DNA of 5,193 bases, taken from IMG/VR virus record IMGVR_UViG_2897358383_000001, positions 1-5,193 of that record, one strand, 5' to 3'. The DNA comes from a virus (taxonomy: Duplodnaviria > Heunggongvirae > Uroviricota > Caudoviricetes). This document shows, one piece after another, positions 1 to 5,193 of this stretch (its first letter is position 1; every line of letters begins with the position of its first letter). The notes below the pieces were generated by a model. It saw nothing but the letters and a program-made list of their open reading frames with translations, searched no databases and was not told the origin of the DNA. A program made the position numbers and the translations under genes.

Positions 1-1
1 C

Positions 2-328
2 CCAACGTTAAAATTACCTGATTTACGCGGTGAGTTTATCCGTGGTTGGGATGATGGGCGAGGTGTGGATGCGGGAAGGGTCATCTTAAGCATACAGGGG
101 TGGTTAACAGGAAGTCATTATCATAATATTCGGTCATGGGACGCGTGGGATAACACGGTATTGGTGCCAAATGACAGAGGGGGGGATAGCCTGTTGTCGA
201 CAGATAACGCCGTCCAAGAAGGAGCGATTAATGGTAAATTTACCAGTCAATACAGAACGGAGTTATCTGGGGGGAATGAAACCCGCCCACGTAACATTGC
301 CTTCAATTATATTGTGAGAGCAGCATAA
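2..328 (+). CDS. Tail-fibre protein, C-terminal variable (receptor-binding) cassette A; 5' end lies upstream of the window
   Basis: Frame is open from position 2 to TAA at 326-328 (the GTG at 65 in the ORF track is internal). Translation PTLKLPDLRGEFIRGWDDGRGVDAGR...ETRPRNIAFNYIVRAA carries the Mu S / P1 S-type motif and the same C-terminal 16-mer as the - strand cassettes. Its stop overlaps the next start (TAATG). Confidence 0.8.
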   Translation, partial: PTLKLPDLRGEFIRGWDDGRGVDAGRVILSIQGWLTGSHYHNIRSWDAWDNTVLVPNDRGGDSLLSTDNAVQEGAINGKFTSQYRTELSGGNETRPRNIAFNYIVRAA

Positions 329-938
329 TGGATAATGCGATATTAAATAGCGAACTTATAGCCATACAGGCAGGAAACATTATCGTTTATAACTATGATG
401 GTGGTAATCGGGAATATATTTCTGCATCAACTGAATATCTTGCTGTTGGCGTTGGTATTCCGGCACATTCTTGTTTGGATGCTCCAGGCTCACATAAAGC
501 AGGTTATGCGATTCTCCGTTCAGAGGATTTAAGTTCATGGGAGTATGTGCCAGATCATCGTGGCGAAACTGTCTATAGCATTGACACAGGGAATCCCGAA
601 GAAATCACGGTGTTGGGTGACTATCCGGAAAATACAACCACTATCGCCCGCTAACACCATACGACAAATGGGATGGAGAGAAATGGGTGGTTGATACTGA
701 GGCTCAACATAGTGGCAGCTGTAGAGGCAGCAGAAACAAAACGTCAGTCATTGATTGATACTGCGATGGATTCCATTAGTCTGATTCAGTTGAAATTACG
801 GGCTGGACGGAAGTTGACGCAGGCAGAAACCACCAGCTTAACTCCGTGCTAGATTATATAGACGAGCTGAACGCGATGGATTTAACCACGGCACCAGATC
901 TCAACTGGCCTGAAAAACAACTTTCTACAGCCAGTTGA
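328..938 (+). pseudogene. Tail-fibre assembly chaperone (Tfa/U-like), reading frame interrupted at least three times
   Basis: ATG at 328 overlaps the cassette A stop. Frame 1 (328-654) gives MDNAILNSELIAIQAGN...ENTTTIAR*. The protein then continues in frame 3 (657-~710, PYDKWDGEKWVVDTEAQH), frame 1 (~709-852, VAAVEAAETKRQSLIDTAMDSISLIQLKLRAGRKLTQAETTSL) and frame 3 (849-938, LDYIDELNAMDLTTAPDLNWPEKQLSTAS*). The C-terminal TAPD(I/L)xWP motif is typical of phage tail-fibre assembly proteins. Breaks coincide with short homopolymers. Confidence 0.55.
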
Positions 939-948
939 TATAATTAAT

Positions 949-989
949 CCGCCCTCACAATATAATTAAATGCAATATTACGAGGGCGG
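949..989. other. Imperfect hairpin (CCGCCCTC..AATAT / ATATT..GAGGGCGG) between the convergent chaperone gene and cassette B; possible bidirectional terminator
   Basis: 8-bp GC-rich stem 949-956/982-989 with an inner 5-bp AT stem 959-963/975-979 and an 11-nt loop. It lies inside the sequence encoding the cassette B C-terminus (RPRNIAFNYIVRA) and is followed by only a short T-run (GTTTCT). Confidence 0.25.
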
Positions 990-1243
990 GTTTCTAAGCC
1001 AGCAGTACCTAAATTAGCTACGGACTGTTTATATGTTTTAAAGTTCCATAATTAGGGGCTGGCAATCCTGCATCGCTTGTGTTCCCCCATCTGATAACTC
1101 CCGTATTACCACTAGTAGCCCATGCCTCGTCAAAGTAGAAATTAATTGAGCTGTCAGTTGCTACGGTTGATTTTGACGGTAATCCGTGAGCATGATCTCC
1201 GTTGCATATCCTTGCTCGCTTAAATAGAGCGACCTGGATCAAT

Positions 1244-1447
1244 CCCGCGCCCGTCATCCCAGCCACGAATGAACTCACCACGTAAATCAGGCAATTTATT
1301 GTCGGGTTAAGCCTTTGCCAGATTTGGGTACTTTTCAGAAGAAAATGCTGCACCATTGCATTTCAGCCACCCCGTTGGAGGTGTGGCTGAGGGCCACGGA
1401 ACAGGCACACCAACAGGCAGTGCAGAGCCTTCCCCAAACCAACGTTT
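1244..1447. repeat. Direct repeat copy 1 (5' module of cassette B including crossover site)
   Basis: Aligns with 1731-1934. About 98% identical over the site-proximal ~140 bp (1310-1447 vs 1796-1934: three substitutions plus a 1-nt C-run difference), about 75% over the distal ~65 bp. Confidence 0.85.
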
Positions 1448-1454
1448 TTATGCC
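1430..1454. other. Candidate invertase crossover site (hix/gix/cix-like), copy at head of cassette B
   Basis: TTCCCCAAACC-AA-CGTTTTTATGCC. The core AAACC-AA-CGTTT resembles the AAACC-NN-GGTTT core of Hin/Gin/Cin sites; the left half is 11 nt rather than 12. Confidence 0.4.
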
Positions 1455-1924
1455 GCCCTTACGATGTAATTAAATGCGATATTTCGTGGACGGGTTTCAC
1501 TCCCGCCAGTATTACCGATACTCCCTCGTGAATGAAGTGTCGGTGATGGGATCAGACTCCCTCCTGTATTTGTGGCATCAAGTCCCCATCCTTGTGTGTA
1601 TGTTTTTTTGAAAATTGTCGCCAGCTCCCATTCATCTTTTGTGTCGTAACCATCATTGGCTACAACAATATGTCGATGCTTTTCCAGCATTCCTGTCTGA
1701 ATGCTCAATAAAGCACGTCCCGCATCCACCCCGCGCCCATCATCCCAGCCGCGAATAAATTCTCCCCGTAAATCCGGTAATTTATTGGTGGGATAAGCCT
1801 TTGCCAGATTTGGGTACTTTTCAGAAGAAAATGCTGCACCATTGCATTTCAGCCACCCCGTTGGAGGTGTGGCTGAGGGCCACGGAACAGGTACGCCAAC
1901 AGGCAATGCAGAGCCTTCCCCCAA
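1448..1924 (-). CDS. Tail-fibre variable cassette C (silent orientation, promoterless; expressed only when fused to the constant part by inversion)
   Basis: Intact 158-codon frame ...LGEGSALPVGVPVPWPSATPPTGWLKCNGAAFSSEKYPNLAKAYPTNKLPDLRGEFIRGWDDGRGVDAGRALLSIQ...ETRPRNIAFNYIVRAA*. The apparent start is a TTG immediately preceded by an in-frame TAA (1934-1936) and sits inside the crossover site, so there is no independent start. Confidence 0.75.
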   Translation of the reverse strand: MGEGSALPVGVPVPWPSATPPTGWLKCNGAAFSSEKYPNLAKAYPTNKLPDLRGEFIRGWDDGRGVDAGRALLSIQTGMLEKHRHIVVANDGYDTKDEWELATIFKKTYTQGWGLDATNTGGSLIPSPTLHSRGSIGNTGGSETRPRNIAFNYIVRAA

Positions 1925-1934
1925 ACCAACGTTT
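1731..1934. repeat. Direct repeat copy 2 (5' module of cassette C including crossover site)
   Basis: Partner of 1244-1447 in the same orientation. The diverged inverted counterpart of the distal part is at window positions 1-70 in cassette A. Confidence 0.85.
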
Positions 1935-1941
1935 TAGTCTT
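1916..1941. other. Candidate invertase crossover site (hix/gix/cix-like), outer site next to the invertase gene
   Basis: TTCCCCCAAACC-AA-CGTTTTAGTCTT, 26 bp. The left half matches the recalled gix left half TTCCTGTAAACC at 9 of 12 positions. It lies at the 5' boundary of cassette C, 55 bp upstream of the invertase ATG. Confidence 0.5.
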
Positions 1942-1995
1942 AATCCCTACCTATACCAACGATGTATTTTTAACTAAACAAAGAGGTTGTTTTTC

Positions 1996-2568
1996 ATGCA
2001 AATTGGCTACATTCGTGTGTCAACAAATGACCAAAACACAGATTTACAAAGAAATGCACTGAACTGCGCAGGATGTGAACTGATTTTTGAAGATAAAATA
2101 AGCGGAACAAAGTCAGCCAGACCAGGCTTGAAAAAGCTGCTCAGAACGTTATCAGAAGGAGATACGCTGGTTGTCTGGAAGCTGGATAGGCTTGGCAGAA
2201 GTATGAAACACCTTATCACGCTTATAGAGGAGTTGCGGGAAAAAGGTGTTAATTTCCGTAGTCTGACAGACAGTATTGACACATCAACACCCATGGGGCG
2301 TTTCTTTTTTCACGTCATGGGGGCTTTAGCAGAAATGGAACGTGAATTAATTGTTGAGAGAACACTGGCCGGACTGGCAGCTGCACGCGAACAGGGACGC
2401 ATTGGCGGACGTCGCCCGAAGTTGACAAAAGAACAACATGAGCAAATAGCGAGGTTGATCGAAAATGGCTACAGCAGGAAACAGTTGGCAATTATTTACG
2501 ATATCGGTGTATCGACGATTTATCGTTATCATCCTGTAGAGAAGCGCCAAACTCAATCTGAGCTGTAA
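1996..2568 (+). CDS. Serine DNA invertase, Gin/Cin/Pin/Hin/Min family
   Basis: 190 aa from ATG 1996 (the track start at 1987 is an upstream TTG), with AAGAGG 9 nt upstream. MQIGYIRVSTNDQNTDLQRNAL... contains the catalytic-serine motif, the conserved VVWKLDRLGRSMKHL and GRFFFHVMGALAEMERELI blocks, and a C-terminal HTH (GYSRKQLAIIYDIGVSTIYRY). Confidence 0.95.
   Translation: MQIGYIRVSTNDQNTDLQRNALNCAGCELIFEDKISGTKSARPGLKKLLRTLSEGDTLVVWKLDRLGRSMKHLITLIEELREKGVNFRSLTDSIDTSTPMGRFFFHVMGALAEMERELIVERTLAGLAAAREQGRIGGRRPKLTKEQHEQIARLIENGYSRKQLAIIYDIGVSTIYRYHPVEKRQTQSEL
2017..2080. promoter_or_regulatory. Candidate recombinational enhancer (Fis-binding sites) inside the 5' end of the invertase gene
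   Basis: Position by analogy with hin/gin/cin enhancers. Near-palindrome GTCAACAAATGAC at 2019-2031; GCGCAGGATGTGAAC at 2066-2080 fits the degenerate Fis pattern G-N2-Y-R-N2-W-N2-Y-R-N2-C; centres are about 48 bp apart. Confidence 0.3.
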
Positions 2569-2688
2569 TTCTAATGCCGCGTCGGTGTAATTTATCTTGA
2601 TAGAATAGGTACATTTATCGCGCGGCACATCAATTCGATGTATCTAGCGCCTGCTGACCGCTAATGAAAACTGTCCTCGAAATGTTGT

Positions 2689-2707
2689 CCCTAGCCCGAG
2701 ACTAGGG
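2689..2707. other. Perfect 6-bp palindromic hairpin CCCTAG-N7-CTAGGG in the invertase-downstream intergenic region
   Basis: Stem 2689-2694/2702-2707, 7-nt loop, no T-tract after it. Could be a protein-binding palindrome or a weak terminator. Confidence 0.25.
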
Positions 2708-3003
2708 TATCACCTCTGGAAAGCATACGCAGAACCTTTTTTAACCCAGGGTGCCCAGCCTTTTTGCTGCTCGCCTTATTCGCAAAAATTAGCTCACATC
2801 CTGCGCTTTCAAGTGCTTTTCACTGCATAGCTGTGTTTTGTTCATTTGTCTATATGCGTACATAGCCTATTAGCATATTTTCTGCCCACTATCGTTATTT
2901 ATTGCAAGCTACAGGTTTTAATTAACAAAACCAGTGTGTGTGGAAATCACAAAGTGCATACCGTTCTCAGATGTTGTTCAACTTACTGTTGTATAGGTAA
3001 AAA

Positions 3004-3267
3004 ATGACATTTTATGTACATATCGTGATGTTATCCCTTCTTGGTGGGGTGTATTCGTATTTGAGTGGGCTATGTGAAAACCGTTACGAGTCTTCATGCA
3101 AGAAATTGCTGGCCGAATGTATTTCCGCCGTACTTGCTGGCTTTATTGGCATGTATCTCGCGGAATATAAGGATATGAATGAAAGCCTTCAGAGCTGCAT
3201 GGTTCTTATTTTCAGCGCCAATAGCAGGCTTATTATTGAAGGTTCCAAAAGTCGGTTGAATAGGTAA
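3004..3267 (+). CDS. Small membrane protein, holin-like paralogue of the following gene
   Basis: 87 aa, AGG 6 nt upstream of ATG. Two clear hydrophobic helices (FYVHIVMLSLLGGVYSYLSGL; LLAECISAVLAGFIGMYLA) and a charged C-terminus. Aligns with the 3342-3671 product in the pattern LLxxxGGxxxxL..R..S..LLxxxxExxxAVxAGxxxxYL...ASN. Confidence 0.45.
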   Translation: MTFYVHIVMLSLLGGVYSYLSGLCENRYESSCKKLLAECISAVLAGFIGMYLAEYKDMNESLQSCMVLIFSANSRLIIEGSKSRLNR

Positions 3268-3315
3268 GTCTCTTATGCAACATAACCGGTTGAGAAGTTA
3301 CTTTGCATACCATTA

Positions 3316-3335
3316 CCTCCTGACAACGTAGGAGG
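3316..3335 (+). promoter_or_regulatory. Hairpin occluding the Shine-Dalgarno sequence of the 3342 gene
   Basis: CCTCCT (3316-3321) pairs with AGGAGG (3330-3335) across an 8-nt loop; the paired GGAGG is the only ribosome-binding site, 6 nt before GTG 3342. Confidence 0.35.
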
Positions 3336-3341
3336 GAACTT

Positions 3342-3671
3342 GTGCTTGACACACAGGAATTAGCTCCAGTTGCTATTGCGCTCCTGCTTTCAGTAATTGG
3401 TGGGATAGGCACGTTCCTGATGGATGTCCGAGACGGTCGCCAGTCTGGCAATTTGTTGGGATTGGTTACGGAGATCTTTGTTGCAGTGACAGCTGGCGCG
3501 GTGGCGTACCTATTGGGGCAACACGAGGGCTGGGAGTTATCCATTACGTACTTAATGGTAACGATAGCCAGCAATAACGGTCATGAGGTGATTTCAGGGA
3601 TGAAACGAGTGAATATCGATAGCATTCTGAATGTTCTTACAAGTTTGGTGAAAAAGGGAGGCGGGAAATGA
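3342..3671 (+). CDS. Putative phage holin (small 2-3 TM membrane protein)
   Basis: 109 aa, GTG start with strong GGAGG. TM segments LAPVAIALLLSVIGGIGTFLM and LLGLVTEIFVAVTAGAVAYLLG, a weaker third, and a Lys-rich hydrophilic C-terminus (LVKKGGGK). Stop overlaps the next start (ATGA). Confidence 0.65.
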   Translation: MLDTQELAPVAIALLLSVIGGIGTFLMDVRDGRQSGNLLGLVTEIFVAVTAGAVAYLLGQHEGWELSITYLMVTIASNNGHEVISGMKRVNIDSILNVLTSLVKKGGGK

Positions 3672-4111
3672 TTGGCTGGGGTGTATGCGTTCTTGCGTTA
3701 GCCTTAGCCGATCGCTATTTGCTAAAACGCAAGGACATCACGCATTTAGAACTTGGTGATGTGGAAATTAAACCGGGTTTCATCCGGGTGCCGTTCAAAT
3801 ACCGGTCTAAATTCCCGTTTTTGCGCGGCGCAACGGTCAGATATTGGATCCGCGATGTTCAGAAGCCGACGACAGTGATTGAAGGCGAACAACGTTGTTT
3901 GACGTCGGCTGAACAGGGCGAAAACAGTGAATGGTTGTACATACCCACTGAATATATGGGTAAAGGAGAGCGACTGTGGCATTTCAACGTCATGGTTACG
4001 CATGGCGACTCGTTCATTAACCCGTTGTATCGGATTTTCCCTGTTACTCAGCAAATCCGCAGAAGTTACGTAATAAATCTCGCACAGGATGTGTCAGATG
4101 ACGAAAAATAA
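3668..4111 (+). CDS. Hypothetical protein with N-terminal membrane anchor, translationally coupled to the holin-like gene; possible holin regulator
   Basis: 147 aa, ATG 3668 overlaps the upstream stop, AGGGAGG 6 nt upstream. N-terminus IGWGVCVLALALA is hydrophobic, the rest hydrophilic. The function is inferred only from position after a holin. Confidence 0.6.
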   Translation: MIGWGVCVLALALADRYLLKRKDITHLELGDVEIKPGFIRVPFKYRSKFPFLRGATVRYWIRDVQKPTTVIEGEQRCLTSAEQGENSEWLYIPTEYMGKGERLWHFNVMVTHGDSFINPLYRIFPVTQQIRRSYVINLAQDVSDDEK

Positions 4112-4700
4112 GTATGCAACGGTCGATTTTGACCAGGTTAATGAAAAGGGGCTGAAATCCCTTATCGCGGCGATCAATAAAACCGGTGTTACGGTAATTG
4201 AGGTTGACTCCAGCAACCGCGCAACAACGAAAGATGGCGTTAAAGTTAAAACCGCAAAGCTGGTTCTTAACGACGGACAAATTCTTGCCATACAGGTAAA
4301 CGATACTGGCGATATATCGTCTGTGAGGCTGAATGGAAAAGCTATTCCTAACGCTCAATCGCCGGATATCAAGACGCTTGGTACCGTCATGGGGCAAGCG
4401 GCCCGCAAAAACTCCGCAAAATTCCAGAAATCACTGATCGCCAAAGCGAAACGTGTTGCCAATCCGGTAGACAAGAAACCGGCAGTAAAATCCAACTTTC
4501 AGCGCCTGCAAGAGGCAAAACAGCGGAATGCTCAGGTGGTTGCCGCTTATAAATCAGCGCAGAACTCGGTGTCTTTCAATCAACAGCAGATCACTGATTT
4601 GCGGGCGAAGCTGGATAAGGAGACAGGCCGACTCAATAACGAAAAGGCCCGAAATGGCGAACTCAAACGCCGTCTTAAGCAACTGAAAGCAGGAAATTAA
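4098..4700 (+). CDS. Hypothetical Lys-rich protein with C-terminal coiled-coil-like region
   Basis: ATG 4098 preferred over 4089 (AGGA 8 nt upstream); the start lies 14 nt inside the upstream gene. 200 aa, MTKNKYATVDF...; C-terminal third is rich in K/R/Q/E/A (QRLQEAKQRNAQVVAAYK...LRAKLDKETGRLNNEKARNGELKRRLKQLKAGN). Confidence 0.65.
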   Translation: MTKNKYATVDFDQVNEKGLKSLIAAINKTGVTVIEVDSSNRATTKDGVKVKTAKLVLNDGQILAIQVNDTGDISSVRLNGKAIPNAQSPDIKTLGTVMGQAARKNSAKFQKSLIAKAKRVANPVDKKPAVKSNFQRLQEAKQRNAQVVAAYKSAQNSVSFNQQQITDLRAKLDKETGRLNNEKARNGELKRRLKQLKAGN

Positions 4701-4701
4701 C

Positions 4702-5193
4702 ATGGAACAGTTCAATATCAATAAAGGGGTGACGATCAAGCCTGGGCTTGACGTGCTTCCCCCGCCAGTGACTGATGATGAATATCGCGCATTAATGGCC
4801 GGTGAGGACCGCTATCTGATGACGGAATCCAACACCCTGGAGGAAATCGAGGCTACGTTCTTCTATGACACGCCGATCCACTGGTGTGCTACGGATTTAC
4901 TGGAGGCGATTAGTTCTACTCGTTTGCAGTTACACCGGACCATGCAGGCATTTGTCCGGGCATTGAACCAGAAGCTGAATGGTACCGGAATCTCTGCGGG
5001 GAGTGATAAAACGGGGGATGTGGCCCAGAGCGGCGCGCGCGCGATCGGCGGTGCTGAAATTGGCCGGGCACGGAACGTTAACGGGCTGCCGGTCCTGCCA
5101 GCCATTATTCCGCTCAGTGATGGTCAGACTATCAGCATTCTGTTTCATAGCCCGACAGCGGAAAACCGGATCACCAATAGCGATACGCTGGTT
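4702..5193 (+). CDS. Hypothetical protein, 3'-truncated by the window (at least 164 codons)
   Basis: ATG 4702 is 1 nt after the upstream TAA with AGGAAA 5 nt upstream. Frame is open to the window end (MEQFNINKGVTIKPGLDVLPPPVTDDEYRALMAGEDRY...). It is absent from the ORF track only because no stop falls inside the window. Confidence 0.65.
   Translation, partial: MEQFNINKGVTIKPGLDVLPPPVTDDEYRALMAGEDRYLMTESNTLEEIEATFFYDTPIHWCATDLLEAISSTRLQLHRTMQAFVRALNQKLNGTGISAGSDKTGDVAQSGARAIGGAEIGRARNVNGLPVLPAIIPLSDGQTISILFHSPTAENRITNSDTLV

What the first reader, a model, noticed from the sequence alone, without database searches (positions are those of the whole stretch)
1..2568. Invertible tail-fibre host-range switch with three C-terminal cassettes and an adjacent serine invertase
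The sequence shows one + strand fibre cassette (A) open from the window start, two - strand promoterless cassettes (B, C) that each begin at a crossover-like site, and a Gin/Cin/Pin-family invertase 55 bp beyond the outer site. Simple G-segment (Mu) or C-segment (P1) systems carry two cassettes; three cassettes with repeated crossover modules fits a multiple-inversion system of the p15B Min type. The inverted partner site needed to fuse B or C to the constant region should lie roughly 130-140 bp upstream of position 1.
Basis: partly seen in the sequence, partly recalled or inferred. Interest (0 to 1): 0.75.

Follow-up and report, generated by a model that had tools for sequence, protein, structure and literature searches.

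The report
p15B Min-type tail-fibre inversion switch
This is the already-described multi-cassette "Min" DNA-inversion switch that P1-like phage-plasmids of E. coli use to swap the tip of their tail fibre and so change host range; the window is an unplaced, error-bearing assembly fragment of such a plasmid.

Summary
The window carries one + strand fibre-tip cassette (A, 2-328) and a tail-fibre assembly gene U (328-938). Two - strand cassettes follow (B 944-1437, C 1448-1924). Each starts at a 26-bp crossover site of the form TTCCCCCAAACC-AA-CGTTTT (1430-1454 and 1916-1941). An intact Gin/Cin-type serine invertase (1996-2568) lies 54 nt beyond the outer site.

The interpretation as a p15B Min-type multiple-inversion system also holds. 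The window is the whole GenBank record NZ_CP027129.1, "plasmid unnamed5" of E. coli AR_0372. It is really a fragment of that strain's 97-kb P1-like phage-plasmid.

The companion contig carries the predicted inverted partner site 136 bp upstream of window position 1. It also carries two more partner sites and the constant fibre gene reading through one of them. The strain therefore has five cassettes, not three. Relatives have 5 to 11.

Closed relatives are found as different inversion isomers, including one with C fused to the constant region. U is co-oriented with the invertase in 14 of 31 plasmids and opposite in 17.

The frameshifts in U and B are nine single-base indels, probably consensus errors at a contig end. 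A published relative was reported 99% identical to p15B min. Verdict: already known, low interest. One loose end remains: how the single U gene is expressed when it is inverted.

The parts
2..328 (+). Cassette A: the 3' two-thirds of an alternative fibre-tip coding segment. Its 5' 136 nt and its crossover site lie off the window.
   Evidence: Open frame to the stop at 326-328. It corresponds to the intact 152-aa ORF WP_071961623.1 at L002 6823-7281, which has a Collar domain. The conserved C-terminus is ETRPRNIAFNYIVRAA.
328..938 (+). U, the tail-fibre assembly (chaperone) gene. Its ATG overlaps A's stop codon (TAATG). In the window it is broken by single-base indels at 647, 714 and 834.
   Evidence: 99% identical to the intact 612-bp gene in L002 and L004. 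The intact product is 203 aa and matches Caudo_TAP at 3e-30.
944..1437 (-). Cassette B: an alternative fibre-tip segment convergent with U. Its stop lies 5 nt from U's stop. In the window it is broken by indels at 1040, 1197, 1222, 1299, 1307 and 1433.
   Evidence: It aligns to the intact 165-aa ORFs at L002 7898-8395 and L004 8945-9442, which have a Collar domain.
1430..1454 (+). Internal crossover site at the 5' end of B. It overlaps the stop codon of C. It reads TTC[T]CCCAAACC AA CGTTTTTATGCC, and the window lacks the bracketed T.
1448..1924 (-). Cassette C: an intact alternative fibre-tip segment of 158 aa. The frame stays open back through the site (..NVGLGEGSALPVG..).
   Evidence: ORF and Collar domain. 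The same cassette is fused to the constant region in CP088415.1.
1916..1941 (+). Outer crossover site next to the invertase: TTCCCCCAAACC AA CGTTTTAGTCTT.
   Evidence: It has the same 12-2-12 layout as the annotated cixL of P1 (TTCTCTTAAACC AA GGTTTAGGATTG).
1996..2568 (+). Min-type serine DNA invertase, 190 aa, with the catalytic serine at Ser9.
   Evidence: Resolvase and HTH_7 domains. It matches Mu Gin structures 4M6F and 3UJ3 at E 4e-92 over residues 1-185, and Ser9 aligns with the S9A position of 3UJ3. It is 74% identical to P1 Cin. It is identical to UniRef Q05517_ECOLX 'DNA-invertase' and is seen on at least 1000 contigs.
2014..2085 (+). Probable recombinational enhancer inside the 5' end of the invertase gene. 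This is inferred by homology only.
   Evidence: 58 of 72 positions are identical to the annotated 'enhancer of Cin-mediated C-segment inversion' of P1, at the same position in the gene.
2703..2876 (-). Pseudogene remnant of a P1-type cin gene: the first ~58 codons, with two in-frame stops. It marks the boundary where the Min module replaced the Cin module.
   Evidence: Homology to P1 (94%) begins at about window 2700-2703, inside cin. The translation is MLIGYVRI*TNEQNTAMQ*KALESAGCELIF... It retains 62 of 72 enhancer positions.

Best explanation
The window is the invertase-proximal end of a Min-type multiple DNA-inversion switch in the tail-fibre operon of a P1-like (IncY) phage-plasmid.

The fibre gene S has a constant 5' part (Sc) that ends at a 26-bp crossover site. 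Downstream lies an array of about 150-codon cassettes with no evident promoter of their own. Each cassette begins with the same site and a conserved module of about 220 bp (the Collar domain). Each ends with the same about 60-bp 3' module (..ETRPRNIAFNYIVRAA*). Only the middle part, which presumably binds the receptor, differs between cassettes.

The serine invertase encoded just outside the array recombines any two sites in inverted orientation. Fis acting at an enhancer in the 5' end of its gene probably assists it. Each inversion turns round the DNA between the two sites. It places a different cassette in frame behind Sc and reorients other cassettes for later rounds.

The R-S late transcript then yields a fibre with a new tip. 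When the single chaperone gene U is co-oriented, the same transcript also expresses U.

Shown here: the anatomy, the enzyme family, the in-frame read-through, and the natural isomers. Inferred: Fis dependence, host-range consequences, and activity in this particular strain.
For: - Sites and cassette modules are real and non-random.
- The invertase is intact with a catalytic Ser9. It matches Gin structures at E 4e-92 and is 74% identical to Cin.
- The same strain's contig supplies Sc and three partner sites in the opposite orientation. The S ORF reads through the first of them.
- Closed relatives show 5, 7, 8 and 11 sites with the same grammar. That grammar is a site with the Sc-type left half, internal sites that overlap the previous cassette's stop codon, and a distinct outer site next to the invertase.
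- Isomers exist. CP088415.1 has Sc fused to cassette C, with the A-U-B-C block inverted.
- Klebsiella plasmids INF277 and KSB1_1H have the same length and come from the same hospital. They differ by rearrangements whose breakpoints fall exactly at sites. Two inversions explain the difference.
- U is co-oriented with the invertase in 14 of 31 plasmids and opposite in 17.
- Literature: MF510496.1 is a 99.5% match to the invertase region. Its inversion region was reported as 99% identical to p15B min (PMC5786510). A pJIE250-3 invertase 98.5% identical in protein sequence to p15B Min lies in reverse orientation relative to P1 cin (PMC6906374).
- The P1 record's own notes map p15B homology to the 5' end of cin and to the enhancer.
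Against: - No read-level data exist for AR_0372, so inversion in this strain is not shown.
- In the window as deposited, U and cassette B are frameshifted. If those indels were real, part of the switch would be dead. They are absent from the same strain's other contig, so they are most likely errors.
- The p15B sequence (X62121) was not available to the tools. Identity to p15B therefore rests on two papers plus transitive similarity.
- The enhancer is inferred from 58/72 identity only.
- The single U gene is antisense to S in about half of the natural isomers. No promoter that would then express it was found.
Confidence: 0.93

Rival explanations
1. It is a simple two-state switch of the Mu G-segment or P1 C-segment type. 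Only the Sc site and the outer site recombine. The internal sites and extra cassettes are inert relics of duplication.
For: The invertase is a close relative of Gin and Cin. The central unit A-U/B resembles a G segment that has lost U'.
Against: The rearrangement breakpoints between INF277 and KSB1_1H fall at internal sites (8716/8719 and 10301/10304). The internal sites keep the same invariant cassette-side half and TT core as the Sc and outer sites. Cassette order and orientation differ among relatives in ways a single inversion cannot produce.
Confidence: 0.03
2. It is a decayed, non-functional locus. The frameshifts in U and cassette B in the window are real, and the plasmid can no longer make switchable fibres.
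For: In the deposited window, U has 3 indels and B has 6. Some published P1-like plasmids do have crippled switches (PMC6906374).
Against: The same strain's other contig covers the same DNA, with U and B intact and annotated. All nine indels are single bases. They all lie in the first 1450 bases at the contig end, while window 1696-5193 has no gaps against a relative. The other contig shows the mirror-image error pattern at its own end.
Confidence: 0.03
3. It is a genuine small 5.2-kb plasmid carrying a captured piece of phage DNA, as the GenBank record title suggests.
For: The record is titled 'plasmid unnamed5'.
Against: The record is linear and has no replicon or mobility typing. Both ends cut through genes: cassette A at the left and darA at the right. 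It is collinear with the interior of closed 95-97-kb P1-like plasmids. It overlaps the 97-kb contig of the same strain, which lacks exactly this invertase-to-darA stretch.
Confidence: 0.01

Closest known systems
Min multiple DNA-inversion system of plasmid p15B, E. coli 15T- (Sandmeier, Iida, Arber and colleagues 1990-1992; Iida 1990)
   Same: Both sit on a P1-related IncY backbone. Both have a serine invertase read away from the invertible DNA, opposite to P1 cin, and more than two crossover sites. Both have one constant fibre 5' part and several alternative 3' cassettes, with a remnant of cin beside the invertase. A 99.5%-identical relative of the invertase region was published as 99% identical to p15B min. 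From my own knowledge of the abstracts, p15B has six mix sites, 240 isomers and six alternative 3' ends.
   Different: This strain has five sites and cassettes rather than six. Relatives range from 5 to 11. Direct alignment to X62121 was not possible with these tools.
Cin / C-segment of phage P1
   Same: Same genomic position, between S and the lydC-lydA-darA operon. The recombinase is 74% identical. The 12-2-12 site layout is the same, and an enhancer lies at the same place in the gene.
   Different: P1 has two sites and two long Sv cassettes, each with its own U or U'. P1 cin is on the opposite strand and ends 4 bp from cixL. Here the P1 homology stops inside cin, at about window 2703, and only a pseudogene stump remains.
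Gin / G-segment of phage Mu
   Same: Mu Gin is the best solved-structure match to the invertase (4M6F and 3UJ3, E 4e-92). The central unit A-U/B is built like a G segment.
   Different: Mu has two sites, two cassettes and two chaperone genes. Here there is a single U and no U'.
R64-type shufflons (Rci)
   Same: Both are multiple overlapping inversions that swap the C-terminal ends of one adhesin-like protein.
   Different: The shufflon recombinase Rci is a tyrosine recombinase with asymmetric sfx sites, and its target is the pilus tip protein PilV. The resemblance is an analogy, not a relationship (own knowledge; reference list of PMC11850598).

Membership tests
Din family of serine DNA invertases (Hin/Gin/Cin/Pin/Min) | Protein of about 190 aa with an N-terminal resolvase-type catalytic domain carrying the nucleophilic serine, and a C-terminal helix-turn-helix | tested here: met
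   Resolvase 2e-51 (residues 3-135) and HTH_7 3e-15 (138-180). It aligns end to end with Gin, and Ser9 aligns to the S9A position of 3UJ3.
Din family of serine DNA invertases (Hin/Gin/Cin/Pin/Min) | 26-bp crossover sites made of two imperfect 12-bp inverted half-sites around a 2-bp core, present in inverted orientation | tested here: met
   Two sites lie in the window in one orientation. Three lie in the opposite orientation on the same strain's other contig. The layout matches the annotated cixL and cixR of P1.
Din family of serine DNA invertases (Hin/Gin/Cin/Pin/Min) | Fis-dependent recombinational enhancer in cis, within the 5' end of the invertase gene | tested here: inconclusive
   58 of 72 positions are identical to P1's annotated enhancer at the same position in the gene. 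Fis binding was not tested and cannot be tested here.
Min-type multiple inversion system (p15B) | More than two crossover sites defining overlapping invertible segments | tested here: met
   Five sites in AR_0372 (window plus L002). Relatives have 5 to 11.
Min-type multiple inversion system (p15B) | One constant 5' fibre ORF that reads through a site into any of several alternative 3' cassettes | tested here: met
   S ORFs span the Sc site in L002, L004, L007, L008, L010 and L011, with different cassettes fused.
Min-type multiple inversion system (p15B) | Inversion actually occurs, so isomers are found | tested here: met
   This holds at the level of natural relatives. There is a C-fused isomer, INF277 and KSB1_1H lie two inversions apart, and U orientation splits 14:17. 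It was not tested for strain AR_0372 itself.
Min-type multiple inversion system (p15B) | Sequence identity of the invertase and the inversion region to p15B (X62121) | not testable with these tools
   X62121 is not in the collections. Indirect support: MF510496.1 is 99.5% identical to window 1942-2700 and was reported 99% identical to p15B min (PMC5786510). The P1 record notes p15B homology to the 5' end of cin and to the enhancer.
P1 Cin / C-segment | Two cix sites only, Sv-U and Sv'-U' cassette pairs, and cin read towards the segment | tested here: not met
   There are more than two sites and a single U. The invertase is on the opposite strand, and cin is reduced to a pseudogene stump.

The most novel reading that the evidence does not exclude
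The array has only one chaperone gene, U. It is locked in a unit [site-A-U / B-site] with no site inside it, so every inversion flips U, and cassette B can never be co-oriented with U.

About half of natural isomers carry U antisense to the R-S late operon. I found no P1-type late promoter and no convincing sigma-70 promoter facing U from the invertase side.

The most novel reading not excluded is that U is expressed independently of orientation by an unrecognised route. Alternatively, some cassettes, B above all, may fold without U. Under either reading the Min switch would work differently from the paired Sv-U / Sv'-U' logic of Mu and P1.

The plainer alternative is that U-antisense isomers are simply non-productive.
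Probability: 0.2. Interest if true: 0.35.

Novelty: already known. Interest (0 to 1): 0.15.

Why it matters
As biology it confirms a textbook mechanism. Min-type switches give P1-like phage-plasmids several alternative fibre tips, and so a broad and variable host range. That matters because these elements carry resistance genes such as mcr-1 and ESBL genes between Enterobacteriaceae.

The practical lessons are about data.
- A GenBank 'plasmid' of 5.2 kb is really a fragment created when an assembler broke at an invertible region.
- The apparent pseudogenes in it are probably consensus errors.
- Deposited P1-like plasmids are arbitrary snapshots of a shuffling locus. Fibre-gene annotation and host-range prediction from a single assembly are therefore unreliable.

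Tried and rejected
1. Original Min papers. I tried to read PMC53420, PMC206102 and the P1 genome paper PMC523184. None is held. Statements about six mix sites and 240 isomers therefore rest on my own knowledge of the abstracts.

2. Promoter for inverted U.
- The sigma-70 and terminator scan of 1-3400 found fewer promoter-like sites than shuffles give, and none in a useful place.
- The P1 late-promoter box AAGTTACTT occurs only upstream of R and at LPdar (window 3295-3313). It never faces the array from the invertase side.
- The former cin promoters upstream of the cin stump are degraded. For P1cin the -10 hexamer has changed from TAAAAT to TAAAAC and the spacer is one base shorter. P2cin has diverged.
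- I therefore dropped the idea that they drive U or an antisense RNA to the invertase.

3. Palindromic end of the 97-kb contig. I considered whether it might be a real isomer. It cannot be, because it inverts Sc and R, which lie outside all sites. It is a fold-back at the 220-bp inverted module.

4. Recent descriptions. A literature search for recent accounts of large cassette arrays in P1-like phage-plasmids found nothing specific.
Full report
**What the window is.** The 5193 bases are identical to the whole GenBank/RefSeq record NZ_CP027129.1, 'Escherichia coli strain AR_0372 plasmid unnamed5'. That record is linear and has no replicon typing. The same strain has a 97,167-bp linear record, NZ_CP027133.1, which is a P1-like phage-plasmid. 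Window 1-1935 overlaps that record (L002 6954-8853, 96.9%, many single-base gaps). The 97-kb record lacks everything to the right of window 1935. The window is collinear with the interior of closed 95-97-kb IncY plasmids. An example is NZ_CP023961.1, to which window 1696-5193 is 99.4% identical with no gaps. It is therefore not a plasmid. It is the missing invertase-lydC-lydA-lydB-hdf-darA' piece of the strain's P1-like element, split off when the assembler broke at the invertible region.

**Checking the observation.** Cassette A is open in frame 2 from base 2 to the stop at 326-328. The motif CCCAAACCAACGTTTT occurs at 1433-1448 and 1920-1935, against none in 200 shuffles. The 26-bp sites are at 1430-1454 and 1916-1941. 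A 221-nt direct repeat (1230-1450 and 1716-1936, 89%) and a 64-nt direct repeat form the shared 5' and 3' modules of cassettes B and C. Both modules have inverted counterparts in A.

Cassette C (1448-1924, - strand) is an intact 158-aa frame with a phage tail Collar domain. Its frame stays open back through the site. The invertase (1996-2568) has Resolvase and HTH_7 domains. It matches Mu Gin structures at E 4e-92 with the catalytic Ser9 in place. It is 74% identical to P1 Cin.

Alignment shows nine single-base indels at 647, 714, 834, 1040, 1197, 1222, 1299, 1307 and 1433. The same nine appear against the same-strain contig and against a closed relative. In both of those, U (203 aa, Caudo_TAP 3e-30) and B (165 aa, Collar) are intact. 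All nine lie in the first 1450 bases at the contig end. The other contig shows the mirror-image error pattern at its own end. I read them as consensus errors. One of them removes a T from site B, so the true sequence there is TTCTCCCAAACC.

**The rest of the locus.** On the same-strain contig the annotated 974-aa fibre gene S (L002 3449-6373) reads through a site at 5865. Further sites follow at 6379 and 6818, all in the orientation opposite to the two in the window. It is an internal site, however. In this arrangement A is the third + strand cassette (order Sc::X, Y, A, U) and is not fused to the constant part. The strain therefore has five sites and five cassettes.

Read in cassette sense, every site has an invariant cassette-side half, GGTTTGGGGGAA, and a TT core. 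The other half depends on position:
- TTCTTAATTACC at the Sc junction
- GGCATAAAAACG at internal sites, where it overlaps the stop codon of the preceding cassette (..VRAA*)
- AAGACTAAAACG at the outer site beside the invertase

**Relatives and evidence for inversion.** Closed relatives show the same grammar with 5, 7, 8 and 11 sites.
- CP088415.1 (circular) carries the block A-U-B-C inverted relative to its flanks. Sc is fused in frame to the cassette equivalent to window C, and the match to the window ends at 1932, inside the site.
- Two Klebsiella plasmids from one hospital, INF277 and KSB1_1H, are both 95,815 bp. Their flanks are collinear, but their arrays are rearranged. L010 6804-8917 is inverted at L011 10304-8191, and L010 8716-10351 is displaced to L011 6804-8439. 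The breakpoints fall at sites, and two successive inversions explain the difference. KSB1_1H is the Sc::B isomer.
- Across 31 plasmids that appear in both search tables, U lies on the same strand as the invertase in 14 and on the opposite strand in 17. This is what a freely flipping segment sampled at random would give.

**What it is.** The right flank is P1-like: lydC, lydA, lydB (LydB 8e-104), hdf and darA, with the LPdar late promoter conserved at 3295-3313. P1 homology (94%) stops at about window 2700-2703, inside cin. In P1, cin lies on the opposite strand and ends 4 bp from cixL. What remains in the window is a cin stump of about 58 codons with two in-frame stops (2703-2876, - strand). 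To its left sits a different invertase gene read away from the array.

This is the arrangement recorded for p15B. The P1 record's own notes map p15B homology to the 5' end and promoter of cin, and to the enhancer. Venturini et al. found a pJIE250-3 invertase 98.5% identical in protein sequence to p15B Min, 'in reverse orientation' relative to P1 cin (PMC6906374). Zhou et al. reported the inversion region of pMCR_SCKP-LL83 (MF510496.1) as 99% identical to p15B min (PMC5786510). MF510496.1 is 99.5% identical to window 1942-2700, 99.7% identical to U, and 94.9% identical over window 11-1935. The invertase is identical to UniRef Q05517_ECOLX and occurs on at least 1000 contigs. One cluster member of cassette C is already annotated 'alternative C-terminus of phage tail fiber protein, fused to tail fiber protein by ...'.

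**Mechanism.** The invertase recombines any pair of inverted sites. This turns round the intervening DNA and brings another cassette into frame behind Sc, and repeated rounds shuffle the array. The stretch 2014-2085 matches 58 of 72 positions of P1's annotated Cin enhancer, at the same place in the gene. Fis-assisted synapsis is therefore the likely control, by analogy with Hin, Gin and Cin. That is inferred, not shown. Host-range change is also inferred, from the Collar and receptor-binding character of the cassettes and from the p15B, P1 and Mu literature.

**A loose end.** There is one U gene. It sits in a unit site-A-U / B-site with no site inside it, and the stops of U and B are 5 nt apart. 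Every inversion therefore flips U, and B can never be co-oriented with it. No late-promoter box faces U from the invertase side. The simple promoter scan found nothing useful. The old cin promoters are degraded. Either U-antisense isomers are non-productive, or U is expressed or dispensable in a way I could not see.

**Verdict.** The cassette count needs correcting, and so does the assumption that A is the fused cassette. The system has been known since 1990-92 and is common in E. coli, Klebsiella and Salmonella P1-like plasmids. Novelty: already known. Interest: low.

Noticed in passing
whole window; L002 8643-13874: The 'plasmid unnamed5' record is an assembly fragment. The companion 97-kb record ends in a 5.2-kb palindrome: L002 8643-13874 is the reverse complement of L002 1327-6593 (98.3%, 61 gaps). 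The fold-back occurs at the inverted 220-bp cassette module. About 1.07 kb of darA is missing from both contigs.
   Followed up: yes
window 647, 714, 834, 1040, 1197, 1222, 1299, 1307, 1433: Nine single-base indels relative to both the same-strain contig and a closed relative break U, cassette B and one crossover site. They are probably long-read consensus errors at the contig end.
   Followed up: yes
window 2703-2876 (- strand), upstream region to about 3000: There is a stump of a P1-type cin gene of about 58 codons with two in-frame stops. It keeps 62 of 72 positions of the Cin enhancer. Its former promoters are degraded (P1cin -10 TAAAAT to TAAAAC, spacer one base shorter). It marks the junction where the Min module replaced the Cin module.
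   Followed up: yes
window 328-1454; L008, L010, L011: A single chaperone gene U is locked convergent with cassette B. U is antisense to the fibre gene in 17 of 31 plasmids, and no promoter that would then express it was found.
   Followed up: partly
L002 4114-5704 (outside the window, constant part of S): The fibre shaft carries 5.3 tandem copies of a 300-bp unit at 98% identity. CP088415.1 (L008) has one copy fewer in the blast map, which suggests variation in fibre length.
   Followed up: partly
L009 (NZ_LR882977.1) 8417-19930: This relative has 11 crossover sites in one array. It also has a second copy of invertase-lydC-lydA with three more sites 3.8 kb downstream. This is either a real duplication or another assembly artefact of the invertible region.
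   Followed up: no
window 3004-5193: This stretch is the P1-type lysis and antirestriction operon: lydC (3004/3028-3267), the LPdar late promoter box AAGTTACTT-N4-TACCAT at 3295-3313, lydA (3342-3671), lydB (3668-4111), hdf (4098-4700, DarA_N domain) and the first 164 codons of darA (4702-5193).
   Followed up: partly
window 2574-2588: A short hairpin followed by a T-rich tail lies 6 nt after the invertase stop codon. It is a candidate terminator for the invertase gene.
   Followed up: no
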